Shown in pieces: positions 1,241 through 39,454 of a stretch of 64,000 bases of DNA. Positions within the stretch are counted from its first letter, which is position 1, and every line of letters starts with the position of its first letter. A model generated the notes under the pieces. It made no database searches. It had not been told where the DNA came from and was given only the letters and a program-made list of their open reading frames with translations. This DNA comes from an uncultured Candidatus Saccharibacteria bacterium (GTDB lineage: Bacteria; Patescibacteriota; Dojkabacteria; SC72), in the NCBI GenBank assembly GCA_964621555.1, contig CAZUOO010000001.1:1059-65058 (forward strand). Direction: 5' to 3'. The position numbers and the translations under genes were made by a program.

Positions 1241-2160
1241 AAAAAATCTCAGTTATAGTCCCAATATATAATGAAGGCCCAGAGTTCAAGATATTTCTTG
1301 AGGAGCTTCATAGTGAGCTTAAGGTATTGGGAAATCCATTTGAAGTATTAGTGATTGATAGTTTAACTGAGAATAGTTCATATGACGTTGTTAAGGCCTT
1401 TGCTAAAGCAAATAGGAATGTAAAAGGATACTTTATGAGACATCCTGGGGCTGCGGTTACGGATAAGACTAATAAGTATATGCTAGGGTTTGAAATTGCT
1501 AAGGGAGAGTATGTGATAACTATGGATGGTGATGGTCAAGATAGGCCAAGTGAAATCAAGAAATTTGTTGAGGAGTTGGATAAAGGTAACGATTTTGTAA
1601 TTGGGTATAAGCAGAAACGAAAAGATGGGTTTGTGTATATGCTCACCTCTATGGTTGCAAATGGGCTAATTAGGTCAATCACGGGGGTAAAGGTGCATGA
1701 TATGAACAACGGATTTAAAGGATTTAGATATGATATCCTTCGTGACTTAAAACTTAGATCTGGTCACTTTAGATTTCTTCCTGTAATAGCTGCCGCTAAA
1801 AAGTGGAAGACCGCTGAGGTTAAGGTACTTCACAGAGCTAGGGAGCATGGAAAGGGTAAGTTCAGCTTTACAAGCAGACTTCAGGGTGGGCTATTCGATA
1901 TGTTTGTAGTCTATGTAGTTTCAAAGATGGGAGATACTCCTATGTATACCCTTGGATGGTTCTCAATACTCTTATTTTTGATTGGTTTAGTTGTAGGTAT
2001 ACTTTCACTCTATACGGGTTCAATGCTTCTAGCTATCATCTCCGCTTTGGTAGGATTCTTCGCTTTAAACGTATTTCTTTTGGGAATTATTATTGAGTAT
2101 ATGAGAGGACAAAGCCCAATGAAGAGCTACAAGGGATTGGTAGTGGATATCATTGATTAG
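1237..2160 (+). CDS. GT2 glycosyltransferase, polyprenol-phosphate sugar synthase-like (DPM1/ArnC-like) with C-terminal TM helices
   Basis: N-terminus ISVIVPIYNEGPE and a DGDGQD motif typical of Dpm1/ArnC-type GT2 enzymes, followed by a hydrophobic C-terminus. Confidence 0.75.
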   Translation: MKKISVIVPIYNEGPEFKIFLEELHSELKVLGNPFEVLVIDSLTENSSYDVVKAFAKANRNVKGYFMRHPGAAVTDKTNKYMLGFEIAKGEYVITMDGDGQDRPSEIKKFVEELDKGNDFVIGYKQKRKDGFVYMLTSMVANGLIRSITGVKVHDMNNGFKGFRYDILRDLKLRSGHFRFLPVIAAAKKWKTAEVKVLHRAREHGKGKFSFTSRLQGGLFDMFVVYVVSKMGDTPMYTLGWFSILLFLIGLVVGILSLYTGSMLLAIISALVGFFALNVFLLGIIIEYMRGQSPMKSYKGLVVDIID

Positions 2161-3848
2161 AAGTCGCAGAGCCTATCCTTATTATCTATTTCAAAGATAA
2201 AGAAGCTGTGACCAAGTTCTCGTACTGGTTCAATCTCATTTGCAAAGAATTTATACCTCAAGCATACTTGCCACTGTTCCAACTTCTTAATATTTGTAGA
2301 AAGCATTTCCTTGGGGTATACAACGTAATTTGTATTTTGAAGCTCTCGCTCCTCTCTTTCAAGTAGGTGATTTTCCTGTCTCCAATCAAAATTACTATCC
2401 TGCAAGTATAGGTAATTATATTTCTCCTGTCCTACAACTTGGTTAAAGTATGCAATGTAGATTGGATAGTGAGTAACAGAAAGGAATATATGTGAAGCAA
2501 TTAGTAGTCCAACTGTATATTTATACCAGCTGAGGTTTTTAAACTTCTCGTATAGCGAAACTATTACGAATGCAGATGCAAGGGTTAAAAAAGGATATAC
2601 AGGGAGCAGATGACGTATTCCAATGTTTATTGAACTTGAAAGCGAAAGTAGGGTTAAGACCACAGGAATGGTTATCAAAGGTAGTAAAACGGGCCTCTTG
2701 TTGATTATGTTCTCTCTATTTCTATATGCTAACGCACCCATATATATGGCTGTGAACACACTTATGATGATGAATGGAACAGTTTCCTTCGCAAGAAATG
2801 CTATTGGGAAGTATAGTGGATTTCCTCCATTGCTAGGTTGTCCCAAAAGATATGTTCTGTGCCCGTGGAAATTATGCTTAACCACGTTATCATAGAATCC
2901 TTTAAAGTACTGAGGGAAAGGTAGTTTAACATCTTTATATATTGATTCTAGGAATTCTAGTTTGATAAATGGAACAATCCGCTCAATTGTACTAAGGTGG
3001 TCCATAGTTGCTTCGATCTTACCTGGATTGTTGTAGTCAACTTCATAGATTGTGGCAAAATTAAATCCGTAGGCGGCCGTTAACAGAAAGAGTATTGATA
3101 TAACGATACCTACAGTTGATAGTGCAACCGCTTTTATTGAATGTCCAAAGCTCTTATACCTCACAAATATATACGTAAGTAGCCAAAATGGAAGGAGCAA
3201 TGTGGCCGTATATTTAGTAATTAAAGCTACTAGAATTAAGATGATACTTAGCCATGGTTTATGCTTCGAATTATTCTGCGTTAATCGAAGGTCGTGATAG
3301 AGAGCGAGGGTTGCAAGAAATATTGTAAACATTGCTGGAGCGTCCGTAGTTACTAAACCAGAGTGGGCAATTAGGGTAGGGGAGAATGCTAGAAGGAGTG
3401 TTGATATAACTGTTCGTCTGAAGCCGAAATTAATATAGAGTAGTTGGTAGATTATAAAAAGCATAGTAGCGGAGAGCAACGATGCCGTAAAACGGCCATT
3501 AACTAGAAACTCTAGAGAATATGTTTCTCTTCCTCCATTGAGCTCCACTAATCTGAATGCAATATCATCCTTTTTAGCTTGCTCCCAGTTCTCACTATCA
3601 AGGTCTTCAATTACAAAGCTTTTATCTGCTGAAATTGGTATCGAATGTAATATATTAAAGAGAATAGGGTGGTGCTGGTTTATTCTATAGTCTCCTGTAC
3701 GTAGTAACATAACCCCTCTGGCGGTATGACTCACTTCATCCGTTGTATAGGATAGATCTTTTACAGATCCAAACGAGAGTAAGAAGAATGCTAACGATAT
3801 CGTTAATGGAATTAACAAACGCTTTAGGACAGTTTTAAACTTTGTCAT
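2157..3848 (-). CDS. GT-C fold membrane glycosyltransferase (ArnT/PMT-like, GT39/GT83 family)
   Basis: 563-aa polytopic membrane protein with an ArnT/PMT-like topology. It lies convergent and adjacent to the GT2 and flippase-like genes. Confidence 0.55.
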   Translation of the reverse strand: MTKFKTVLKRLLIPLTISLAFFLLSFGSVKDLSYTTDEVSHTARGVMLLRTGDYRINQHHPILFNILHSIPISADKSFVIEDLDSENWEQAKKDDIAFRLVELNGGRETYSLEFLVNGRFTASLLSATMLFIIYQLLYINFGFRRTVISTLLLAFSPTLIAHSGLVTTDAPAMFTIFLATLALYHDLRLTQNNSKHKPWLSIILILVALITKYTATLLLPFWLLTYIFVRYKSFGHSIKAVALSTVGIVISILFLLTAAYGFNFATIYEVDYNNPGKIEATMDHLSTIERIVPFIKLEFLESIYKDVKLPFPQYFKGFYDNVVKHNFHGHRTYLLGQPSNGGNPLYFPIAFLAKETVPFIIISVFTAIYMGALAYRNRENIINKRPVLLPLITIPVVLTLLSLSSSINIGIRHLLPVYPFLTLASAFVIVSLYEKFKNLSWYKYTVGLLIASHIFLSVTHYPIYIAYFNQVVGQEKYNYLYLQDSNFDWRQENHLLEREERELQNTNYVVYPKEMLSTNIKKLEQWQVCLRYKFFANEIEPVRELGHSFFIFEIDNKDRLCDF

Positions 3849-23134: not shown

Positions 23135-23208
23135 TGCGGGATCGTCTAATGGTAGGACACCGGCCTTTGAAGCCGTGAATCATGGTTCGAGTCCATGTCC
23201 CGCAACCA
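23135..23208 (+). tRNA. tRNA-Gln (anticodon UUG)
   Basis: Acceptor TGCGGGA/TCCCGCA with a U1:A72 pair as in bacterial tRNA-Gln, anticodon loop CTTTGAA, T-arm CATGG-TTCGAGT-CCATG and an encoded CCA. Confidence 0.8.
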
Positions 23209-23229
23209 ATATATATCCAATCTAATCCC

Positions 23230-24258
23230 ATGGAAAATTTTACTCTCCTAGTCCAGAAGTCAAAAACCATCCTAATCGCCGGTCATATGACACCTGATAT
23301 TGATGCCTATGCAAGTACTATTTTAATGGGGAAGTTGATACAAGAAAACTATTCAGAAAAGACAGTTCACATGGTAATAGATTCAAAGAACAAGATGAAT
23401 TTAATCTCACACCTAGAAGGATATGAGGAGATTGAATTGGGAAGTATTTTAGAGAAGCTAAAGAATTACAAACCAGATTTGTTAATCCTAGTTGATGGCT
23501 CAGACGTTTCAAGATTCTTCACAGATATTGAGGAATTTGAAAAGATAAGGGGAGGCACGAAGGTTGCAATATTTGATCACCATACACCAGTAGATGAAAA
23601 TGTTGATTACTATTTATCTGAGAAAAGGTGGTCATGTGTAGATGTTATATACAATAGGTTGGTAAAGCTAGAGGGTTTTAAACCCTTTAAAGGATGGGAA
23701 GAGGTTTATCTGACAGGATTAATATCTGATTCAAGCCGTTTCTACTATTCAATGCAATACTACAGAGACACATTTGATACAGTTAGCAATCTATTGGATA
23801 AAGGGTATAGCATTCGAGATGTATCTGATTCAATAACTGGGTTCACCAGAGATGAGCTAAAGGTATTCAACCTATTTATTCAAAAAGTGAAATACAATGG
23901 TAATTATGCATTCGCCTATATAACTCAGGAAGAGTTCGAGACAGAACTCAAAGGAATAGATGTTAATATCTATAAGCGAGCAAGAAGATATTACATCGAC
24001 AATATTCTAGTGAAAGTATATGACATTGATTTTTGTTACACACTTGCTCCTGATGAAACTGTAGATGATGATACTGTATATACGCTTTCCTTTAGATCTA
24101 AGCCTAATACGTATGATTGCGTAAAGCTAGTTCAAAACTTTAAAGGAGGAGGCCATATAACGGGTGCAGGTGGAACTATAGTAGCAAATAATATGGAAGA
24201 TGCGATTAAGCAAGTGGAGGAGAGTATAAGTAATACAATAGAAGAGGCAGGGCTATAG
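23230..24258 (+). CDS. nrnA: DHH/DHHA1 phosphoesterase, NrnA-like oligoribonuclease/pAp phosphatase
   Basis: DHH motifs HMTPDIDAYAS and IFDHHTP, and DHHA1 GGGHITGAGG. The ORF track starts at 23182 inside tRNA-Gln, so the start is trimmed to the MENFTLL Met at 23230. Confidence 0.7.
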   Translation: MENFTLLVQKSKTILIAGHMTPDIDAYASTILMGKLIQENYSEKTVHMVIDSKNKMNLISHLEGYEEIELGSILEKLKNYKPDLLILVDGSDVSRFFTDIEEFEKIRGGTKVAIFDHHTPVDENVDYYLSEKRWSCVDVIYNRLVKLEGFKPFKGWEEVYLTGLISDSSRFYYSMQYYRDTFDTVSNLLDKGYSIRDVSDSITGFTRDELKVFNLFIQKVKYNGNYAFAYITQEEFETELKGIDVNIYKRARRYYIDNILVKVYDIDFCYTLAPDETVDDDTVYTLSFRSKPNTYDCVKLVQNFKGGGHITGAGGTIVANNMEDAIKQVEESISNTIEEAGL

Positions 24259-24301
24259 CGCAATGTCAAAAACCTCTATATTATACCTTTCAAAGTCTAG
24301 A

Positions 24302-24329
24302 TTGTAGGGTGTAGAATAACTCATATAAA
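24302..24329 (+). promoter_or_regulatory. Candidate sigma70-like promoter (TTGTAG, 16-nt spacer, TATAAA) upstream of the SDR gene
   Basis: Hexamers are read directly from the sequence. The genome is AT-rich, so chance matches are common. Confidence 0.25.
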
Positions 24330-24346
24330 TTCGATATATTCAAAAT

Positions 24347-25090
24347 ATGGAAATAAAAGATAAGGTCGCTTTAATAACAGGTGGTTCAAAAGGAATTGGA
24401 AAAGCTATCGCACTGCTATTAGCAGAAACAGGAGTTAATGTAATAGTGAATTATAATGCGGATGAGGAAGGTGCAAATAATGTAGTAGATGAAGCTATTA
24501 AACTTGGTCGTGAGGGATTAAGTGTAAAGGCTGACATCTCCGATGAATCACAGGTGAAAATGATGTATAAAGAAATCTTGGAGAAATTTCCAGAGGGCAT
24601 TGATATCTTAATTAATAATGCTGCGATTTTTGATAGCTCTGACGGTCCTAAATCAAGCGAAGCTTTTAAGAATATATTCGATACAAACTTCCTTGGACAA
24701 GTTTATGTTACGAACGAATTTCTTGAAATGAAAAAAGAGGGGAAAATCGTATTCATTTCCTCCATACATGGAAGAATTGGGTCTGGTAGGCCTTCAGCAA
24801 TTGCATATTCTGCTCTCAAAGCCGCCTTAGATTCATATATGAAAAACCTCGCTAAAGCAGTTGCACCTCAAATACTGGTAAATTCAGTTGCACCTGGAAG
24901 AACAATTACACCTATGTGGGGTGAAATGGAACAAACTGAAATAGATGAACTTGCTCAAGATCATTTAACTAATAAATGGATTCAACCCGATGAGATTGCA
25001 GATGCAGTATTATTTATACTAAGGAATGATTCAATCTGCGGTGAAATTTTAACAATCGATGCTGGAATGAGTTTAAAAACACTAGGGTAG
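24347..25090 (+). CDS. Short-chain dehydrogenase/reductase (FabG-like)
   Basis: Rossmann motif KVALITGGSKGIGKAIA, an NNAA motif and a Y..K catalytic pair (YSALK). Confidence 0.8.
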   Translation: MEIKDKVALITGGSKGIGKAIALLLAETGVNVIVNYNADEEGANNVVDEAIKLGREGLSVKADISDESQVKMMYKEILEKFPEGIDILINNAAIFDSSDGPKSSEAFKNIFDTNFLGQVYVTNEFLEMKKEGKIVFISSIHGRIGSGRPSAIAYSALKAALDSYMKNLAKAVAPQILVNSVAPGRTITPMWGEMEQTEIDELAQDHLTNKWIQPDEIADAVLFILRNDSICGEILTIDAGMSLKTLG

Positions 25091-25147
25091 TATTATTGTG
25101 TAAAGTCCACTATACACAAACTCTATAAAATCAAGTATATTTGGTAT

Positions 25148-26569
25148 ATGAAAAACATAGTAAAGAATATTCTTAAAAAGCTTCTCTTCAAAGGCTTCTT
25201 TGAAATTGAACTTACAAATACAGAGAAAAACACCGCTGAGGAATCACTCTCAGATAAGTATGTTAATGGTTTAATGACTAGTGCTATGCTAGGAATTCTA
25301 TCTATACCTGCCATACTATTTTTAGACGTCTCTTTGCTCGTAAGCGTACTTATACCTATAACTATGGTATCTGGTACTGCATGGTTTGCTGTATCTCTCG
25401 TAAATATAAAAAGGAAATTCGAAAACTTCGGGAATGATTTAACTAAGGATCTCTATAGGAGTTTCTGTACATCATTGGTACTACTATCATTAATTGCGCT
25501 AGCTTCACTAAATAGTACGGCATTAAAGCCTCTTATAGAATTAGGGCAGTCTAGTACCATTGTAATCGCACTATCTGGTGTTATAGGTACTCTCGTTGTA
25601 TTAAAAATGATCTATGATGTATTTTCAGGTGCTACAAAGTATGACATGAACGATTCTATGCTAACAGGACAGAATGAATCAGCAGAAAGATACTTTAGAA
25701 AATCTCTTTCTCTGCTAAACTCATGTGCCACAAATCTTAGATTAGGCGGCCAAGATATTGGAGTTACTGCATATTACTTCTCTCTAGCATTTTATGAGGT
25801 ATTTAGCTATATCAAAACTATAAAAGGTGAGGATACCGATATAGATGAAGCACTCGTAAAAGCAGAAAGTCTTAAACTGAACCCTCCAACTTCTCAAGAT
25901 CAACTAGTTAGCAACACAACCACATTCATAGAACTATTTGTAGATAAAGTTTCAAACATACAAGAAAAATCTGTCGCGAAAAGTATTAAGAGTATCAAAA
26001 ATGAAATAGTCGCAGTTAAGAACAACGGTACTTCACTTGCATTGTTCAACCTAAGGCTCTCTACGATACTGGATGAAGTTGAAGATCTATTAGTATCACA
26101 AGGAGAAGCCTTGTTTATAAAGAGAACAGAGATTGAAAGACGGTTCCTAATATCTAAAGACATAGATTTAGGCAACTCTGTTCCCATAGAGATTAAGCAG
26201 GGATATATCGAAATCACCTCCGATACGGAGGAAAGAGTCAGGTCTATGAATACAGAATACTACCACACTATTAAGAAAACGCTACCATCAGGATATAGAG
26301 AGGAAACAGAAAAGAGAATATCCGCAGAGGAATTTAATACTTTATGGCAAAAAACTGAGGGACATAGACTTGTTAAAACTCGATATAAACTACCATTGGG
26401 TGATTACACAGCTGAAGTTGATATATTTGGGGAAAATAACACAGGATTGAAAATCGTAGAGGTTGAATTTCCAAGTGAGAATGAGGCAAATCGCTTTGTA
26501 CTACCTGATTGGTTTGGAGAAGAGGTTACATTTAATAAGCCATATAAGAATCAGAGTTTAGCAAGATAA
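25148..26569 (+). CDS. Membrane protein (4 predicted TM helices) fused to a C-terminal CYTH (triphosphate tunnel metalloenzyme) domain
   Basis: The C-terminal ~160 aa begin with the CYTH signature EIERRFLI and carry the later acidic and basic tunnel residues (EVEFP, KTRYKL). The N-terminal 220 aa are hydrophobic. Confidence 0.55.
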   Translation: MKNIVKNILKKLLFKGFFEIELTNTEKNTAEESLSDKYVNGLMTSAMLGILSIPAILFLDVSLLVSVLIPITMVSGTAWFAVSLVNIKRKFENFGNDLTKDLYRSFCTSLVLLSLIALASLNSTALKPLIELGQSSTIVIALSGVIGTLVVLKMIYDVFSGATKYDMNDSMLTGQNESAERYFRKSLSLLNSCATNLRLGGQDIGVTAYYFSLAFYEVFSYIKTIKGEDTDIDEALVKAESLKLNPPTSQDQLVSNTTTFIELFVDKVSNIQEKSVAKSIKSIKNEIVAVKNNGTSLALFNLRLSTILDEVEDLLVSQGEALFIKRTEIERRFLISKDIDLGNSVPIEIKQGYIEITSDTEERVRSMNTEYYHTIKKTLPSGYREETEKRISAEEFNTLWQKTEGHRLVKTRYKLPLGDYTAEVDIFGENNTGLKIVEVEFPSENEANRFVLPDWFGEEVTFNKPYKNQSLAR

Positions 26570-26571
26570 TT

Positions 26572-27537
26572 ATGGAGATCCTAAGTTTAGTTAAGGGTAT
26601 CCTCACAAACAATAATATAAGGTATAAAGATGTTACACCTGTAACAGGTGGATTTAATAATAAAGTATTGAATGTCGATAATAAATATATTCTAAAAATT
26701 GGCAACTCAGAGGAATCCTTAAATATATTTAGAAACGAGGAAGAACTATTTATTAAAATAGGGAAGTCTGCAAATGTACCTGAAATTCTCCATGTCGGAA
26801 GTTATGAAAACTATGCATACCAGATACAAGTATATATTGAAGGTGAAAAGATATTTAATAAATGGAGTAGAATTGAGAATCAGAGAAAAATAAGAATAAT
26901 TGATAGTCTAGCAATTCAACTTAAGGGATTACATGGACACAATCTTTCTAATAGCTTTGGTCGATGGTCTGAAGTCGATCTTGTGAGTAATACTTGGAGA
27001 GAATATATAACTAAACTCTTTAATACCTCAATAAAGTATGTTCAAGACTCCAATTCAGGAATCGGGGCAAGTATAATAGACTCATGGGTTTCATTCTTTG
27101 AAGCAAATATCGATTTACTCGTAGATAGTCAAAAATCCACACTTCACGGCGACGTATGGTTCGAGAATATTATAGTGGATAAAAACGATAATGTGACATT
27201 AATAGATTTCGAATACATATTAACTGCCCCTATTGAATTTGAATTAGTAATACCTGAACTAATATCTATGTATCCTAATCTTGTATCTTCACAACATTAT
27301 AAGACTGGTGACTTTTCTGATTTTGTACCACTATTATTACAATCATATCCAGACCTAATGAAGATTGCTAACCTACGAGAAAAAGTTGACCTGTACCAGT
27401 TCGTATATAATCTCTATAAGTATAGGCTAAGAAGAGAATGGGAATTGAGAAATGACCCTACGTCAATTAAGTTTCCAGATTATCTACTAGCTAGAACTTA
27501 CAATTTTATAATGAAAGAGGGTGTGAGAATGTTTTAG
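26572..27537 (+). CDS. Aminoglycoside/choline-kinase-like phosphotransferase (APH family fold)
   Basis: Catalytic loop HGDVWFENIIV and a DFEY motif (Brenner HxDxxxxN...D). The start lies 3 nt after the CYTH gene stop. Confidence 0.65.
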   Translation: MEILSLVKGILTNNNIRYKDVTPVTGGFNNKVLNVDNKYILKIGNSEESLNIFRNEEELFIKIGKSANVPEILHVGSYENYAYQIQVYIEGEKIFNKWSRIENQRKIRIIDSLAIQLKGLHGHNLSNSFGRWSEVDLVSNTWREYITKLFNTSIKYVQDSNSGIGASIIDSWVSFFEANIDLLVDSQKSTLHGDVWFENIIVDKNDNVTLIDFEYILTAPIEFELVIPELISMYPNLVSSQHYKTGDFSDFVPLLLQSYPDLMKIANLREKVDLYQFVYNLYKYRLRREWELRNDPTSIKFPDYLLARTYNFIMKEGVRMF

Positions 27538-27633
27538 GTATAGCTAATATTACTCATATCTATTACAAACTAGATATACATATTTCTTCAACCTTGATAT
27601 GCAATAATTCAAAAAAATGATACTATTACCAAT

Positions 27634-30600
27634 ATGAAAACTAAGAAGGTAAAAAGAAATATTCAAAAACTACTACTAACGATTATAGCTTCGATATTAG
27701 TACTAACAGGAACCTTCCTGTACTTCAAAGACCTCATATTTGTAAACGCAAGAGACGTAAAAATTTCAAACCTCACCTCAACCTCTGCTACTATAACGTG
27801 GGTTACAGATAAAAAGACCCCTGGTATGTTACTCATGAATGAAGGTTCTAAGTTTTCCAATTCTATGCTTGATCTTTTCACAAGTGAAAAAGTCTACGAC
27901 CAGAGAGATATACATACAAAAGCTACACGACAAGCTATTGATGGCAAAAGGAGATACACCCACTATGTCACAATCGCTGATCTAAAACCCAACGATAAAT
28001 ATACATTCAAAATTTCAAATGGAATTAGAATATGGGATATAAATGATGTAGATCAGAACGCTGAGTGGTACTCTGTTGAGAATATGTCAGACTTCTCATT
28101 CAATACCCAAGATTTAGATAACGGTAATTTCTCGCTACCACAAACACTTTCTGGAGACCTACTCGATCAGGAAGCCTCCCCATACTCTGATGGTATTATA
28201 TTTGTAAAAGTATACCCAGTGAAAAGTGACGGGAAAATCGATGAGGAGAAGGGAAGTCAAATTATTTCCTCCTATGTAGACAAATCAGGAGGATGGATTC
28301 TCGACTACTCGTTGGCGACGTCAACTCTTGAAAGTAATCTCAACGAAGCATATATTTTCGCACACATAGAGAATAAATCAGATATTCCAGGACAATTTGA
28401 GAAGGTAGCGGAAGGTAATACCGAAGTGAAACTATTTAAATACGATAGAATGCAATCACTTAAGGAGAACTTCATACCTCAGTTTGCAAGTAAAGTGCAG
28501 GCAGCTGGAAGATCTATGTGTTGCGCCCTAATTGTGTCGGGTAGAGAAAATGTATACTTTGATTATGAAAACGATTCAACCTGCGATTCTTGTGGAGCAT
28601 GCTTCCCAGTTGGAAAACCTGTGGCAGGTGGGACAATCAAAGAGGTTGGTGAGGTACAGGTATCGGGTAGTAATGACTCGGAAAGGAGAAATAGTTGTGA
28701 AAGTATGACTAGATTGGCGAGTGAAGGACTCCCAAGTGGATCATCATCAGGTGGATCTGGCAATTTTGCAGGGACTTGCAATGCAAGCCTAAAGGATTCT
28801 GAGTTCGAGTTAAAGGAGATTGATCGTGAAAGGTTCATTTCATATGCAAACAGACTGGCTGGCGATGGCAGTCAAGCAGCTGAGTGCTATAATTATGTGG
28901 TATGTAAAGCACGTCAAAATGGAATAAATCCTGCTATGATGCTCAATATTTGGGTGCATGAATCTGCAGCTAGTAACTATAAACGATTCCCAGGAGTTGA
29001 GGATATGGGCATACACTGCTATGGTGGTGCAGGTAACTATCCAGCATACCCTTGTAATCAAACCCCTAAGGAAGATATTAAAGCACAGACAGAAATGTTT
29101 GGACTCCTTCCTCATACCAAATGTCTAAATGGTGGTTTTGACATAATCAAATGGTCTACAGGATTCTGGACAGGTAATTGTACCGATACTTCATATGGTG
29201 AAAGATACTATACTGACCTTAAGCTTCAATGGAGTTCATATGGTATAGGGAGTTTTCCTAATTGGATGAAAAATCCAAGTACCGCGAAACCAAATCTAGA
29301 CTGTGATACTGATGGGGCTACTTCTCCTGAATCCCCAACAAATGGTTCAGGATCTGGTTCAAGCTCAGGTGGAAGTACATCTAACCCACAGCCAACAACT
29401 CCAACCCCAACAAGCGATACCCCACGTGAAATGTGTTGTGCTGTAATACTTGAAGGTCAAAACAAATTTATGAGTAAGCTAACAACTGCAAAAAGTTGTG
29501 CATCTGCTTTTCAAGTAGGTACAGAGGTTCAAATTGGTACTACCACTGGAAAAGTTCAGTTTGGAGCAGAAATCAACTATGAAAAAACTTCACAAGTTCA
29601 ACCACTATGTTGCGCAATTAAATATGAGGGCAGAGACAATCTATATTTCGACTATGAAAATAAGGGTGCGTGTAATAAGTGTGGTGAGTGTTTCCCTGTT
29701 GGGAGTTCAAATGGTGGAGCGAAAGTACTTGCCGTTGGAAGTGAACCTGTGAGGGGTGCTAATGATGCTGAGATGCGTGCAAATTGTGAGGCTACGGTAA
29801 GGTCTGCAAGCGCAGGAGTACCTGCTGATACACCTAGAGATAGTTCCGGTGCTAATAATTGTAATGGTGGTGTATATAACATAGTTTGTGAAAATGGACT
29901 ACCATCGCCAGATGGGAGGAAGTCCTCATCACAGTACGGCACAAATACTAGATGTATAAATCCTAACGACATTCCTAAAGATGATGGGATAATTAATGTT
30001 CCAATCACAAAAGAGAATTCGACAATATTTTCACAGTTGGCTACAACAATTCACGCCGCTGAGGCAAGCAAGGTGAAAGAAGTAAGTGGAAGCATAGTTA
30101 AGTTCACTGAGGATGGTATATATAACATTCAAATAGGGGACTACAAAGTTTCTAACGTACCAATAAACTCAGATGCCAGATATAGATTCTTTGATGATGT
30201 AAATGGGGCAAGAGGTTTTCAATCAGACAAGGACAAAGCAGTCTCTCCTAAAGATAAGAATGGCATTAAAGCTGTAAAAATTGAAAGTGCATATAGATTG
30301 GAACTAAACTCAGGGTACAATTTCATTTCCACAAACTATAAGAGAGAGCCGGGATCTATCGTAGTATCACCTAACAATCCAAACGATATAACATCTGAAG
30401 CACTCTTGAATATTGGAAACATCGATGAAATACGTCTTACATACATAACCACATATGAGGGTGGTAAATGGGTAAACGGTGTTAAACCAAGGGAAGATAG
30501 AAAGGTGGGGATTGTTGGTAACAGCTTTATCATAAATAAGAATCAAGGTTATGTTATTGTGTCCAACAGCGACCTAAAAGGGCCCCTTGCCCTTATACTA

Positions 30601-30882
30601 CCAGGCAAAAGCTCAAATACTAAGTATAAAACAACAATTAATCCTGGTTGGAACTTTAAAGGAATCACCGGAAAAATTGAACCCGCATCTGCTATCAAGT
30701 ATATTTCGGAGGCAAAGTCTTCAAATTCTCTTAAGAAAATAACTATTACACAATGGGATTCAAAGAAAGGGTTCTTTGAGAGTGTTCAAAGCTTGGATTC
30801 AAATATCTATGGAACAGATTTTACTCTCAAAAACGGCCTAGGATACTTTATATATACAGATAAGGAATTCAGTCTTAAATAG
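27634..30882 (+). CDS. Large (1082 aa) N-terminally anchored surface protein: FN3-like domain, duplicated Cys-rich modules, Gly/Ser linkers and an SLT-like segment
   Basis: There is an N-terminal TM helix. The NLTSTSATITWVTDKKTPG motif is FN3-like. The module CCA..G.N.YFDYEN..C..CG.CFPVG...ND.E.R..CE...AS.G.P occurs twice, near aa 295 and aa 660. The segment NPAMMLNIWVHESAASNY resembles the SLT paralogs. Confidence 0.5.
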   Translation: MKTKKVKRNIQKLLLTIIASILVLTGTFLYFKDLIFVNARDVKISNLTSTSATITWVTDKKTPGMLLMNEGSKFSNSMLDLFTSEKVYDQRDIHTKATRQAIDGKRRYTHYVTIADLKPNDKYTFKISNGIRIWDINDVDQNAEWYSVENMSDFSFNTQDLDNGNFSLPQTLSGDLLDQEASPYSDGIIFVKVYPVKSDGKIDEEKGSQIISSYVDKSGGWILDYSLATSTLESNLNEAYIFAHIENKSDIPGQFEKVAEGNTEVKLFKYDRMQSLKENFIPQFASKVQAAGRSMCCALIVSGRENVYFDYENDSTCDSCGACFPVGKPVAGGTIKEVGEVQVSGSNDSERRNSCESMTRLASEGLPSGSSSGGSGNFAGTCNASLKDSEFELKEIDRERFISYANRLAGDGSQAAECYNYVVCKARQNGINPAMMLNIWVHESAASNYKRFPGVEDMGIHCYGGAGNYPAYPCNQTPKEDIKAQTEMFGLLPHTKCLNGGFDIIKWSTGFWTGNCTDTSYGERYYTDLKLQWSSYGIGSFPNWMKNPSTAKPNLDCDTDGATSPESPTNGSGSGSSSGGSTSNPQPTTPTPTSDTPREMCCAVILEGQNKFMSKLTTAKSCASAFQVGTEVQIGTTTGKVQFGAEINYEKTSQVQPLCCAIKYEGRDNLYFDYENKGACNKCGECFPVGSSNGGAKVLAVGSEPVRGANDAEMRANCEATVRSASAGVPADTPRDSSGANNCNGGVYNIVCENGLPSPDGRKSSSQYGTNTRCINPNDIPKDDGIINVPITKENSTIFSQLATTIHAAEASKVKEVSGSIVKFTEDGIYNIQIGDYKVSNVPINSDARYRFFDDVNGARGFQSDKDKAVSPKDKNGIKAVKIESAYRLELNSGYNFISTNYKREPGSIVVSPNNPNDITSEALLNIGNIDEIRLTYITTYEGGKWVNGVKPREDRKVGIVGNSFIINKNQGYVIVSNSDLKGPLALILPGKSSNTKYKTTINPGWNFKGITGKIEPASAIKYISEAKSSNSLKKITITQWDSKKGFFESVQSLDSNIYGTDFTLKNGLGYFIYTDKEFSLK

Positions 30883-38305: not shown

Positions 38306-39454
38306 CTATATTTCCAAACTATGAAGTTGATTAAGCGTTTTTTCACTTAACTCTATCCTATTACCTGTAATCCCCTCAATAAATAGGTCAATATGTCTTC
38401 TACCCAACCTTTCTCCCTTTAATGCAAATGCGACCTTATCAATCATTTTTCGTAAGAAATATACATTCATTTTCTCCTCCAACCCATCAGGCTTGTATCC
38501 AAGCTCTGCCACATACCCTTCTATCATAGCCTCCCTCTTGGGAAAAGCCGATTTCCATGTCGGAGCAGTACCAAGCTCATTAATTGGATCAAACATTGCT
38601 GCATTCTCCCAGTCAAAGAAACAAAGAAAGTTACTATTCTCATAACACATATTAAGATCAGAGGGGTCATTATGAATTAAAGAGGCTATACTATCTGCAA
38701 AAAGACTTTTAACATTATCTGACTTGAAAAATCCCATCAGTTGAAACAGTTCATCAGCAGTAATTAGTTCGAATAATTTAATAACTTCTAGATCATGTTC
38801 CAAAAATGCTGTGAGGAAATCATTATGAGTACCATATACACCATATAACCCACTCTCATCCTTTCGTATCCTTCCCCAACCTCTTCCCTTATACTCCGTC
38901 ATCCTTGCAATATACTTACCTTGTTGAATACAAATCTTCTCATAATCGGATTGTGTGCCCTCCCATTGTGAACCTAAATTACGCCCCGGCAACCTTTTCA
39001 TAATTTGATAATCAAATGGGAATACCTTTCTACTAGAATCAGCATAGATCAACTCATTAACGGGGATACCTAAATCAATATAAATTTTCAGAAAATCAAA
39101 CTCCAGATCCATATACGTTTCTGGGTAGGGAAGTGATGCATTTGCCCTAACCACGACTTCACCATTTCTCGCTGTCTCTATAAATGCAATTACATGCCCA
39201 GTACCTAGAAGATCCGAAACACTGGAGTTAACAACTGTATCTGCAAGTCCATGTTGAATAATTGCAGGAAGGTATGAAGAGTCGAACATTTGCACCCTAT
39301 GTTGCAAGTCCTTAACCAACGCTTTAGGCCTATGTACATTGAAATAGTTTACAAAATCTGGACTGAATCCCTCTCCAAAATACTTATTATCTAACTCTTG
39401 CAGCTGACTTTCATAACTACTATATGATATCTTTTTGGTCATACTCATAAACAA
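38306..39454 (-). CDS. Second APH/kinase-like phosphotransferase family protein
   Basis: Motif HNDPSDLNMCYE...FFDWENA (HxDxxxxN...DWE). Confidence 0.5.
   Translation of the reverse strand: MFMSMTKKISYSSYESQLQELDNKYFGEGFSPDFVNYFNVHRPKALVKDLQHRVQMFDSSYLPAIIQHGLADTVVNSSVSDLLGTGHVIAFIETARNGEVVVRANASLPYPETYMDLEFDFLKIYIDLGIPVNELIYADSSRKVFPFDYQIMKRLPGRNLGSQWEGTQSDYEKICIQQGKYIARMTEYKGRGWGRIRKDESGLYGVYGTHNDFLTAFLEHDLEVIKLFELITADELFQLMGFFKSDNVKSLFADSIASLIHNDPSDLNMCYENSNFLCFFDWENAAMFDPINELGTAPTWKSAFPKREAMIEGYVAELGYKPDGLEEKMNVYFLRKMIDKVAFALKGERLGRRHIDLFIEGITGNRIELSEKTLNQLHSLEI

What the first reader, a model, noticed from the sequence alone, without database searches (positions are those of the whole stretch)
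25148..27537. Membrane-anchored CYTH (triphosphate tunnel) domain coupled to a kinase-like phosphotransferase
A 4-TM N-terminal domain is fused to a C-terminal CYTH domain, with the EIERRFLI signature at its start. The gene is translationally coupled (3-nt gap) to an APH/choline-kinase-fold gene carrying HGDVWFENIIV…DFEY. CYTH domains hydrolyse triphosphates, polyphosphate or thiamine triphosphate, or act as cyclases. A membrane-tethered version next to a small-molecule kinase, just upstream of the giant surface protein, suggests an envelope-associated phospho-signalling or metabolite-processing pair. A second APH-like paralog lies at 38306..39454.
Basis: partly seen in the sequence, partly recalled or inferred. 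Interest (0 to 1): 0.5.

Follow-up and report, generated by a model that had tools for sequence, protein, structure and literature searches.

The report
Membrane-tethered triphosphatase plus unrelated accessory kinase
The gene is real: a conserved, uncharacterised four-helix membrane module is fused to a cytoplasm-facing triphosphate-hydrolysing (CYTH) domain, but the kinase gene behind it is a strain-specific add-on and not a partner.

Summary
Observation confirmed. Gene A (25148..26569, 473 aa) has four TM helices, a helical cytoplasmic domain and a C-terminal CYTH domain. Gene B (26572..27537) is an APH/choline-kinase-fold kinase starting 2 nt (not 3) after A's stop.

The CYTH domain is solid: 43% identical to the Nitrosomonas inorganic triphosphatase NE1496 (E 2.6e-28). 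All catalytic residues are kept, with one Lys-to-Arg change. It shows the triphosphatase motif pattern, not the cyclase or thiamine-triphosphatase pattern. Charge distribution places it in the cytoplasm, not the envelope.

A collinear relative (85-89% nt identity) lacks exactly gene B, and five more distant orthologues have other neighbours. B has no detectable relatives.

The N-terminal 324 residues are not a mere anchor. They form an autonomous, rare family: 123 clusters among 1.84 billion proteins, no Pfam, PDB or PADLOC match. Stand-alone copies occur in CPR bacteria and DPANN archaea. In proteobacterial-type loci they sit in mobile cassettes with TIR- or 2TM-headed partner proteins. CYTH is the only fusion partner seen.

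Best reading: a membrane-tethered NeuTTM-type triphosphatase governed by an unknown membrane module. Moderate interest.

The parts
25148..26569 (+). Gene A: 473-aa fusion protein made of the N-module and a CYTH domain
   Evidence: ORF. About 24 full-length orthologues at 48-59% identity in Microgenomates/Shapirobacteria-type contigs. dN/dS 0.04 against L047. AF2 pLDDT 92.9, pTM 0.77.
25148..26119 (+). N-module (residues 1-324): amphipathic N-helix, 4 TM helices and a cytoplasmic helical domain. It is an autonomous uncharacterised family.
   Evidence: About 88 stand-alone ~325-aa homologues. Only 123 clusters in 1.84 G representatives. No Pfam, PADLOC, PDB sequence or specific fold match.
25271..25627 (+). 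The four transmembrane helices (residues ~42-60, 64-86, 104-122, 138-160). TM2 (SVLIPITMVxGTAWFxxSL) is the best-conserved stretch.
   Evidence: Hydropathy, alignments, charge distribution indicating N-in/C-in.
25622..25711 (+). Membrane-proximal cytoplasmic motif FxGxxKYDxNDxMLTGQNExAE...SLS (residues 159-188). It holds most of the invariant polar residues (D166, N168, D169, Q175, E177).
   Evidence: Invariant columns in the 113- and 89-sequence alignments.
26120..26566 (+). CYTH / triphosphate-tunnel domain (residues 325-473), NeuTTM-like
   Evidence: phmmer against 2FBL/3TYP, E 2.6e-28. Foldseek 43% identity, E 3e-13, followed by other TTM/CyaB structures. phrog_6660 E 7e-27. Stand-alone ~155-aa CYTH relatives at 37-48% identity.
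26129..26143 (+). ExExK hallmark motif, here E328-I-E330-R-R332 (Lys replaced by Arg; Lys in 20 of 22 orthologues)
   Evidence: Motif definition from PMC8233210.
26459..26467 (+). ExE metal-binding motif on the late strand (E438-V-E440). The second Glu is kept, which is the triphosphatase pattern, not the cyclase pattern.
   Evidence: Rule from PMC8233210.
26572..27537 (+). Gene B: 321-aa APH/choline-kinase-fold phosphotransferase, a strain-specific accessory gene
   Evidence: Pfam APH 1.2e-11 and Fructosamin_kin 6.4e-11. Motifs H192GD...N199 and IDFEY 211-215. No homologue besides itself. GC 31.8% against 35.3% for gene A.
26569..27596 (.). 1028-nt gene-sized indel relative to the collinear relative L047, which has 42 nt here. 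It starts at A's stop codon.
   Evidence: blastn collinearity blocks. Junction alignment.

Best explanation
Gene A encodes an inner-membrane protein with both ends in the cytoplasm.

Its C-terminal domain is most likely an active, divalent-cation-dependent triphosphate-tunnel hydrolase of the NeuTTM type. It would cleave inorganic triphosphate, short polyphosphate or another triphosphate-bearing substrate, and it is held at the cytoplasmic face of the membrane. It is not an adenylate cyclase and not a thiamine triphosphatase.

The N-terminal 324 residues are an autonomous, conserved module: 4 TM helices plus a helical cytoplasmic domain, with an invariant polar site at the membrane/cytoplasm interface. 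The module leads rigidly into the first CYTH strand. It probably positions or gates the enzyme, or delivers a substrate or signal to it, rather than merely anchoring it.

Gene B is a catalytically competent but unrelated small-molecule-type kinase. It was gained (or is at least dispensable) in this strain, inserted exactly after A's stop codon. It is therefore probably co-transcribed with A, but it is not its functional partner.

Shown: architecture, fold, catalytic residues, selection, topology by charge, non-conservation of the pair, rarity and autonomy of the N-module.

Inferred: the substrate, the enzyme activity, and the regulatory role of the N-module.
For: CYTH identity:
- E 2.6e-28 and 43% identity to the characterised inorganic triphosphatase NE1496.
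- The NeuTTM catalytic dyad Tyr-28/Lys-52 (PMC3440374) corresponds to Y353/K376.
- E328, E330, R363, R365, K410, R412, E438 and E440 are conserved in 21-22 of 22 full-length orthologues.

Motif rules of PMC8233210:
- There is no His-Phe (Leu-Phe instead).
- The first Arg of xRxR is kept.
- ExE is kept, not ExA. Together these give the TTM pattern.
- There is no aromatic residue before RxR, so it is not a ThTPase.

Topology: mean K+R is 6.6, 3.0 and 4.5 on the N-terminus, loop 2-3 and the post-TM4 stretch, against 0.0 and 0.9 on loops 1-2 and 3-4.

Fused unit: the model is confident across the junction, with pTM 0.77. dN/dS is about 0.035 in both halves.

N-module autonomy. CYTH is its only fusion partner.

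Pair not conserved. Gene B is an orphan.
Against: - No biochemical data exist. The Pfam CYTH score of this particular protein is below the gathering threshold.
- The ExExK lysine is Arg here.
- NeuTTM-type specificity for PPPi cannot be read from sequence.
- F323 sits exactly where class IV cyclases have their adenine-stacking Phe (four residues before the first Glu). Nucleotide binding is therefore not excluded.
- The role of the N-module is unknown, and its relatives' gene contexts hint at conflict systems rather than housekeeping.
- The 2-nt spacing means A and B are probably co-expressed in this strain, so a local functional link cannot be formally excluded.
Confidence: 0.6

Rival explanations
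1. One reading: CYTH protein A and kinase B are a translationally coupled, functionally dedicated pair. Together they carry out envelope-associated phospho-signalling or metabolite processing, linked to the large surface protein downstream.
For: - There is a 2-nt gap and no promoter or terminator signal above chance between A and B.
- Both proteins handle phosphoryl groups.
- Plants have a kinase plus TTM plus membrane-anchor protein, AtTTM1 (7z67), as a weak Foldseek hit.
Against: - B is absent from the otherwise collinear close relative L047, where A is intact and under purifying selection.
- None of five more distant orthologues has a kinase neighbour.
- B has no detectable homologue anywhere.
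- CYTH faces the cytoplasm.
- The 1082-aa neighbour is conserved only in the near-identical strain.
Confidence: 0.06
2. Gene A is a single-chain member of a conflict (anti-phage or anti-mobile-element) system built on the N-module. The membrane module would sense or transduce an infection signal. The fused CYTH would act as the enzymatic output, depleting or degrading a triphosphate-bearing metabolite or signal. This would parallel the TIR- or 2TM-headed partner proteins of the stand-alone N-module genes.
For: - In all nine proteobacterial-type loci examined, stand-alone N-module genes (often two paralogues) sit next to a partner family. That family has a conserved C-domain and either a TIR or a 2-TM N-terminus.
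- These loci often also carry a 2OG-Fe oxygenase and a PNP-family gene that hits PADLOC 'Effector PN-superfamily' at E 9e-21.
- The cassettes are flanked by integrase/AlpA/RepB, HicB/ParE or transposases.
- Two of the nine loci were examined as a prediction and fitted.
- The family has a patchy distribution across CPR, DPANN and Proteobacteria.
- Gene A is bracketed by two strain-variable slots.
Against: - There is no PADLOC hit for the N-module.
- No partner gene is present in the 64-kb window.
- The CPR/DPANN copies lie among housekeeping genes.
- TM2 is unusually well conserved for a membrane-disrupting effector.
- The N-module is absent from phage and plasmid collections.
- No experimental data exist for any member.
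Confidence: 0.15
3. Gene A is a membrane-regulated class IV (CyaB-type) adenylate or nucleotidyl cyclase, as some database entries name its orthologues.
For: - One orthologue is named 'Adenylate cyclase' by its source (P0018).
- CyaB structures are Foldseek hits at E around 1e-3.
- F323 is in register with the cyclase Phe of HFxxxxExExK.
Against: - The His of the HF motif is Leu.
- The first Arg of xRxR is retained (R363).
- ExE is not ExA. All three determinants of PMC8233210 fail.
- The closest characterised relative, NeuTTM, has no significant cyclase activity (PMC3440374).
Confidence: 0.06
4. VTC-like polyphosphate machine: the tunnel domain would synthesise or thread polyphosphate through a channel formed by the N-module.
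For: There is a precedent for a TTM domain coupled to a TM channel in eukaryotic VTC4 (established knowledge). The model predicts a rigid junction between the N-module and CYTH.
Against: - There is no SPX domain and no VTC/DUF202-type TM domain by Pfam.
- The domain order is reversed.
- The CYTH domain is closest to a hydrolase, not to VTC4.
- Most N-module proteins have no CYTH domain at all.
Confidence: 0.03

Closest known systems
NeuTTM (NE1496, PDB 2FBL/3TYP), inorganic triphosphatase of Nitrosomonas europaea
   Same: 43% identity over the whole 147-aa domain. Same fold. The Tyr/Lys dyad, ExEx(K/R), RxR, KxR and ExE are all present.
   Different: NeuTTM is a soluble ~150-aa stand-alone protein. 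Here the domain is the C-terminus of a 473-aa membrane protein, and the motif Lys is Arg.
Stand-alone ~325-aa N-module proteins ('hypothetical protein') of DPANN archaea, CPR bacteria and some Proteobacteria
   Same: 35-45% identity over residues 1-324, with the same invariant residues.
   Different: They lack CYTH. The proteobacterial ones are in cassettes with TIR- or 2TM-headed partners, a 2OG-Fe oxygenase and a PNP gene. None of these partners is in the window.
YgiF-type CYTH-CHAD proteins
   Same: CYTH triphosphatase domain fused to an all-helical domain.
   Different: There is no CHAD domain. The helical part here is N-terminal and membrane-embedded. YgiF lacks the Lys-52 equivalent (PMC3440374).
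Arabidopsis TTM1/TTM2 (kinase + TTM + membrane anchor; PDB 7z67)
   Same: The concept of a membrane-anchored TTM associated with a kinase. It appears as a weak Foldseek hit.
   Different: The plant kinase is a fused domain, not an APH-fold neighbour gene. TTM1/2 lack ExExK and ExE and prefer pyrophosphate (PMC8233210). From my own recall, not checked here: the plant kinase is of the P-loop uridine-kinase type and the anchor is a single C-terminal helix.
Class IV adenylate cyclase CyaB/YpAC-IV
   Same: CYTH fold. A Phe lies four residues before the first motif Glu.
   Different: It fails the three cyclase determinants: HF, Arg replaced by a small residue, and ExA.
APH / choline kinase / fructosamine-3-kinase family (for gene B)
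   Same: Pfam APH and Fructosamin_kin are above threshold. Has the Brenner-type HGDxxxxN motif and IDFEY.
   Different: All named NCBIfam subfamilies are far below their cut-offs. No PDB sequence hit. No homologues. The substrate is unknown.

Membership tests
CYTH / triphosphate tunnel metalloenzyme superfamily | N-terminal ExExK motif | tested here: met
   E328-I-E330-R-R332. Both Glu are invariant in 22 of 22 orthologues. The Lys position is Arg here and Lys in 20 of 22. This is a conservative substitution, so the feature is met with that caveat.
CYTH / triphosphate tunnel metalloenzyme superfamily | Beta-barrel tunnel fold | tested here: met
   The AF2 model has pLDDT above 90 in this region. 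Foldseek finds 2FBL/3TYP at E 3e-13, TM(target) 0.71-0.73, followed by SaTTM, CyaB, AtTTM3 and ThTPase.
CYTH / triphosphate tunnel metalloenzyme superfamily | Opposing basic (RxR, K, KxR) and acidic (ExE) tunnel residues | tested here: met
   R363, R365, K376, K410, R412, E386, E388, E423, D425, E438 and E440 are conserved in 20-21 of 22 orthologues.
CYTH / triphosphate tunnel metalloenzyme superfamily | Pfam PF01928 gathering score | tested here: not met
   15.3 bits against a cut-off of 23.2 for this protein. Eleven family members hit at E <= 0.01. The direct match to a solved member at E 2.6e-28 outweighs this.
CYTH / triphosphate tunnel metalloenzyme superfamily | Metal-dependent triphosphate hydrolysis | not testable with these tools
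   Needs an enzyme assay.
Class IV adenylate cyclase (CyaB) | HFxxxxExExK; first Arg of xRxR replaced by a small residue; ExE replaced by ExA (PMC8233210) | tested here: not met
   L322-F323 instead of HF, R363 kept, E438-x-E440 kept.
Thiamine triphosphatase | Aromatic residue in W/YxRxR | tested here: not met
   From the sequence, the W/Y slot two residues before R363 is E361 (E, D or R in the 22 orthologues). The adjacent E362 column has a single Tyr among 22, otherwise E, L, V, I or Q.
CYTH-CHAD (YgiF-like) | CHAD domain | tested here: not met
   No CHAD hit at E <= 0.1.
APH/choline-kinase-like phosphotransferases (gene B) | Pfam PF01636 above threshold; HxDxxxxN catalytic loop; DFE/DxG metal-binding motif | tested here: met
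   45.3 bits against 23.2. H192-G-D194...N199 and D212-F-E214.
   B is absent from collinear L047. There is no kinase next to five other orthologues.
Known anti-phage defence systems (PADLOC-DB 2.0) | Match of the N-module or gene A to a defence-protein model | tested here: not met
   No hit for gene A or for stand-alone members. Only neighbours in other genomes hit: TIR at E 9e-7 and the PNP effector at E 9e-21.
VTC polyphosphate polymerase | SPX domain and VTC-type TM domain with a TTM catalytic domain | tested here: not met
   No such Pfam hits.

The most novel reading that the evidence does not exclude
The 324-aa N-module may be the core of an undescribed membrane-based conflict or signalling system. 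In Proteobacteria it would work, usually as two paralogues, with a partner protein whose head is either TIR or two TM helices, plus 2OG-Fe oxygenase and PNP-type genes on mobile islands. In Microgenomates and some Nanohaloarchaeota the same module has captured a triphosphatase, giving a single-chain version. That version would link a membrane event to hydrolysis of a triphosphate-bearing metabolite or signal.
Probability: 0.18. Interest if true: 0.7.

Novelty: new variant of a known kind. Interest (0 to 1): 0.4.

Why it matters
CYTH enzymes are ancient and widespread, but their physiological substrates and roles in prokaryotes remain unclear. The best-studied relative, NeuTTM, hydrolyses inorganic triphosphate, a compound whose presence in cells has not been established (PMC3440374).

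A version that is hard-wired to a conserved membrane module, and kept under strong purifying selection in reduced CPR genomes, points to a defined place of action at the inner face of the membrane. That gives a handle on what these enzymes are for.

Separately, the N-module is a rare family with no annotation. Its recurrent association with TIR/2TM partner genes on mobile islands makes it a candidate new component of conflict systems.

On the negative side, the 'phospho-signalling pair' idea can be dropped, because the kinase is a strain-specific orphan gene.

Tried and rejected
- Pfam and NCBIfam on gene A gave only a sub-threshold CYTH hit and noise. The CYTH assignment was rescued by PDB phmmer.
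- Profile searches against PDB sequences: nothing for the N-module. The partner family hit only weakly on its TIR part, matching MyD88 TIR.
- PADLOC and PHROGs had no model for the N-module.
- Gene B had no relatives in the 5.8 G word-indexed search, the JGI metagenome scan, phages, any fetched locus or PDB. Its weak PADLOC PD-T4-6 and MkoA hits cover only the kinase N-lobe, and I treat them as generic.
- The N-module has no match in the phage or plasmid collections.
- The promoter and terminator scan was at chance level, so the operon structure is inferred from spacing only.
- Literature searches for a membrane-anchored TTM, for CYTH with anti-phage or transmembrane terms, and for CYTH in Patescibacteria found nothing relevant.
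- A look-up of the window's own protein on contigs failed. A >90% identical cluster member (P0116) provided the decisive collinear locus instead.
- I considered and rejected the cyclase, ThTPase, CHAD-linked and VTC-like readings on motif and domain grounds.
Full report
**1. What is in the sequence**

Two same-strand ORFs lie at the stated coordinates. Gene A is 25148..26569 (473 aa) and gene B is 26572..27537 (321 aa). A's TAA stop is followed by 'tt' and then B's ATG, so the gap is 2 nt, not 3.

Upstream lie a DHH/DHHA1 gene (23182..24258) and a short-chain dehydrogenase (24347..25090). Downstream is a 1082-aa protein (27634..30882) with an fn3/Pur_ac_phosph_N-like domain. After that come uvrB (as Pfam-annotated for the collinear L047 gene), a HIT-family gene (L047 Pfam), an ORF whose translation looks like mutL, a second APH-family gene (38306..39454) and an ORF whose translation looks like superoxide dismutase. 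The mutL and SOD labels are my reading of the translations and were not tested.

Best hits place the window in a Microgenomates/Shapirobacteria-type CPR genome.

**2. Gene A, C-terminal part**

Pfam CYTH alone is below threshold (15.3 bits against 23.2). phmmer against PDB sequences, however, matches residues 327-472 to NE1496 of Nitrosomonas europaea (2FBL/3TYP, 'inorganic triphosphatase') at E 2.6e-28.

An AlphaFold2 model built on 113 homologues is confident (mean pLDDT 92.9, pTM 0.77). Foldseek finds NE1496 at 43% identity (E 3e-13), followed by SaTTM, putative cyclases, CyaB, AtTTM3 and ThTPase.

Reading the alignment against NeuTTM numbering gives these equivalences:
- The catalytic dyad Tyr-28/Lys-52 (PMC3440374) corresponds to Y353/K376.
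- ExExK is E328-x-E330-x-R332. The Lys is Arg here and Lys in 20 of 22 orthologues.
- RxR is R363/R365, KxR is K410/R412, and ExE is E438/E440.
- All of these are conserved in 21-22 of 22 full-length orthologues.

I then applied the three diagnostic motifs of Vogt et al. 2021 (PMC8233210):
- Class IV cyclases need HFxxxxExExK, a small residue in place of the first Arg, and ExA. Here we have Leu-Phe, Arg and ExE.
- ThTPases need an aromatic residue before RxR. Here the residues before R363 are Glu (E361, E362).

The pattern is therefore that of a triphosphatase-type TTM. No CHAD domain is present.

**3. Gene A, N-terminal part**

Hydropathy gives four TM segments at about residues 42-60, 64-86, 104-122 and 138-160. 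The model shows an N-terminal amphipathic helix, the four TM helices, a very long helix (137-199) leaving the membrane, and five more helices up to residue 324. The last helix runs directly into the first CYTH strand with pLDDT of at least 90.

Across 113 family members the K+R load is on the N-terminus (6.6), loop 2-3 (3.0) and the post-TM4 stretch (4.5). Loop 1-2 has 0.0 and loop 3-4 has 0.9. By the positive-inside rule, both termini and the CYTH domain are cytoplasmic, and almost nothing is exposed outside.

This part is not a simple anchor. Of 113 homologues, about 88 are stand-alone proteins of ~325 aa that align to residues 1-324 at 35-45% identity. Invariant or near-invariant residues are concentrated in three places:
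- TM2 (SVLIPxTMVxGTAWFxxSL).
- The cytoplasmic loop after TM2 (KxKFExFGxELT).
- A membrane-proximal motif after TM4 (FxGxxKYDxNDxMLTGQNExAE).

The family has no Pfam model, no PADLOC or PHROG model, no PDB relative by profile and no specific structural neighbour.

An exhaustive HMM search of 1.84 billion cluster representatives finds only 123 clusters. The only additional domain ever attached is CYTH. A scan of one genome per 185,579 species gives 32 loci:
- CPR lineages: Shapiro-, Ames-, Kerfeld-, Magasanik-, Peri-/Peregrinibacteria and WWE3.
- DPANN archaea: Woese-, Iain- and Nanohaloarchaeota.
- A few Proteobacteria.

Between the window and a close relative, dN/dS is 0.034 for the N-module and 0.038 for CYTH. 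Both halves are therefore functional.

**4. Is the CYTH-kinase pair real?**

Gene B is a bona fide APH/choline-kinase-fold protein. It scores Pfam APH 1.2e-11 and Fructosamin_kin 6.4e-11 and has intact H192-G-D...N199 and IDFEY motifs. The pairing, however, is not conserved.

- A protein more than 90% identical to A (P0116) lies on contig L047. That contig is collinear with the window at 85-89% nucleotide identity over about 16 kb, apart from two replacements.
- One replacement is window 26569-27596 (1028 nt, gene B plus 59 nt), which corresponds to just 42 nt in L047. There A is followed directly by the 1082-aa gene.
- L047's intergenic sequence is homologous to the window's post-B spacer, so the indel is gene-sized and begins at A's stop codon.
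- More distant orthologues are flanked by YceG, topoisomerase IB, hydrolases, an aldo-keto reductase or unknown genes, never a kinase.
- B has no homologue other than itself in the 5.8-billion-protein search, JGI metagenomes, phages, PDB or any fetched locus.
- B has lower GC than A (31.8% against 35.3%).
- The second APH gene is only 20% identical to B.

B is a strain-specific accessory orphan, probably co-transcribed with A because of its position, but dispensable for A.

**5. Context of the N-module elsewhere**

This part goes outside the window and is inferential for gene A. I clustered all ORFs within 6 kb of 37 family loci.

- **No separate CYTH gene.** No stand-alone N-module gene has a separate CYTH gene nearby.
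- **CPR/DPANN loci.** In six of them a TrmB-like regulator is divergently transcribed.
- **Proteobacterial-type loci.** In all of those from this set (L014, L037, L038, L040, L041, L043, L045) the gene lies beside a partner family. That family has a conserved C-terminal domain and a head that is either TIR or two TM helices. There is usually a second N-module paralogue. There is often a 2OG-Fe_Oxy_2 gene and a PNP_UDP_1 gene that hits PADLOC 'Effector PN-superfamily' at E 9e-21.
- **A test of the prediction.** Two further loci looked up afterwards fit. L048/49 reads TIR-partner, N-module, 2TM-partner, 542-aa protein, N-module paralogue, flanked by HicB and ParE. L050/51 reads N-module, 2OG-Fe oxygenase, paralogue, 2TM-partner, flanked by transposases. 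L045 sits next to an integrase, AlpA and RepB primase.
- **The window.** It contains none of these partners and only one N-module copy.

The TIR/2TM head swapping on mobile islands is what conflict systems typically look like. No member has been tested experimentally, and I found no literature on the family.

**6. Most likely mechanism**

*Shown:* a cytoplasm-facing, catalytically complete NeuTTM-like domain, rigidly attached to a conserved membrane module, with both halves under purifying selection.

*Inferred:* it hydrolyses inorganic triphosphate, short polyphosphate or another triphosphate-bearing compound at the inner face of the membrane, and the N-module positions or gates this activity.

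Confidence in this composite is 0.6. It is about 0.9 for the architecture and for rejecting the pair, and about 0.5 for the substrate class.

Rivals:
- A single-chain conflict-system protein (0.15).
- A regulated class IV cyclase (0.06).
- A VTC-like polyphosphate machine (0.03).

One loose end remains. F323 belongs to the N-module's conserved C-terminal GExLF motif, yet it falls exactly four residues before the first motif Glu. That is the position of the adenine-stacking Phe in class IV cyclases, so the fusion may have created a nucleobase-contact site.

**7. Comparison and novelty**

The CYTH domain is a new member of the NeuTTM-like triphosphatases. Its fusion to this membrane module is an architecture that databases label only as 'CYTH domain-containing protein' or 'Adenylate cyclase'. 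It is not described in the papers I could search.

It differs from each related architecture:
- YgiF has a CHAD domain and is soluble.
- Plant TTM1/2 has a fused kinase domain, and its TTM lacks the ExExK and ExE motifs (PMC8233210).
- VTC4 has an SPX domain and an unrelated TM domain.

I rate it a new variant of a known kind, interest 0.4. The most novel reading not excluded is that the N-module defines an undescribed TIR-associated membrane conflict system, of which gene A is a CPR single-chain derivative (probability about 0.18).

Noticed in passing
window 23210-24281 (DHH/DHHA1 gene 23182..24258) vs L047 6207-7134: A second strain-variable slot lies about 1 kb upstream of gene A. The window's DHH/DHHA1 (NrnA-like) gene is replaced in the collinear relative by an unrelated NTPase_I-T (PF01931) gene. 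The SDR-gene A unit is therefore bracketed by two replaceable gene slots.
   Followed up: partly
loci L014, L037, L038, L040, L041, L043, L045, L048/L049, L050/L051: There is a recurrent cassette on mobile or defence-like islands. It has one or two N-module paralogues plus a partner family with a conserved C-domain (IWVVS..L.NDL / KG..Y.YFLP / FDE.V.YD) and a TIR or 2-TM head. It sometimes also has a 2OG-Fe_Oxy_2 gene, a PNP_UDP_1 gene, a ~540-575-aa unknown protein and a ~190-220-aa unknown protein. None of these match known PADLOC systems apart from the TIR and PNP parts.
   Followed up: partly
loci L024, L025, L026, L027, L028, L042 (also L010-L012): In DPANN/CPR genomes the stand-alone N-module gene has a divergently transcribed TrmB-family regulator (~250 aa) just upstream, and in some a small 78-aa ORF directly in front.
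   Followed up: no
window 27634-30882 (1082-aa protein): This large protein has an N-terminal TM anchor and an fn3/purple-acid-phosphatase-N-like domain. It also has an internal repeat of a Cys-rich module (CCA.I..G....YFDYEN...C..CG.CFPVG...), seen twice clearly and once in degenerate form. It is conserved in the close relative L047 and not seen next to other orthologues of gene A.
   Followed up: no
window 26111-26131 (residues 322-328 of gene A): L322-F323 of the N-module's conserved terminal GExLF motif falls exactly in register with the HF of the class IV cyclase signature HFxxxxExExK. The Phe is invariant in all 22 fused orthologues and also in CYTH-less family members.
   Followed up: partly
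loci L017 and L019: Contigs labelled 'uncultured Gammaproteobacteria' and 'uncultured Methanosarcinales' carry the Microgenomates-type fused gene. L017 shares several flanking gene clusters with the CPR locus L005. This suggests mis-binned or mislabelled MAG contigs.
   Followed up: no
locus L042 (Nanohaloarchaeota) 1652-3392: Three consecutive short ORFs include one with a strong CYTH hit (E 6.6e-35) joined to N-module sequence. This looks like a fragmented or frameshifted N-module-CYTH fusion in a DPANN archaeon, so the fusion is not restricted to CPR bacteria.
   Followed up: no
window 24322-24346, 25123-25147, 26547-26571, 27609-27633: None of the four genes inspected (SDR, A, B and the 1082-aa gene) has a recognisable Shine-Dalgarno sequence in the 25 nt before its start codon.
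   Followed up: no
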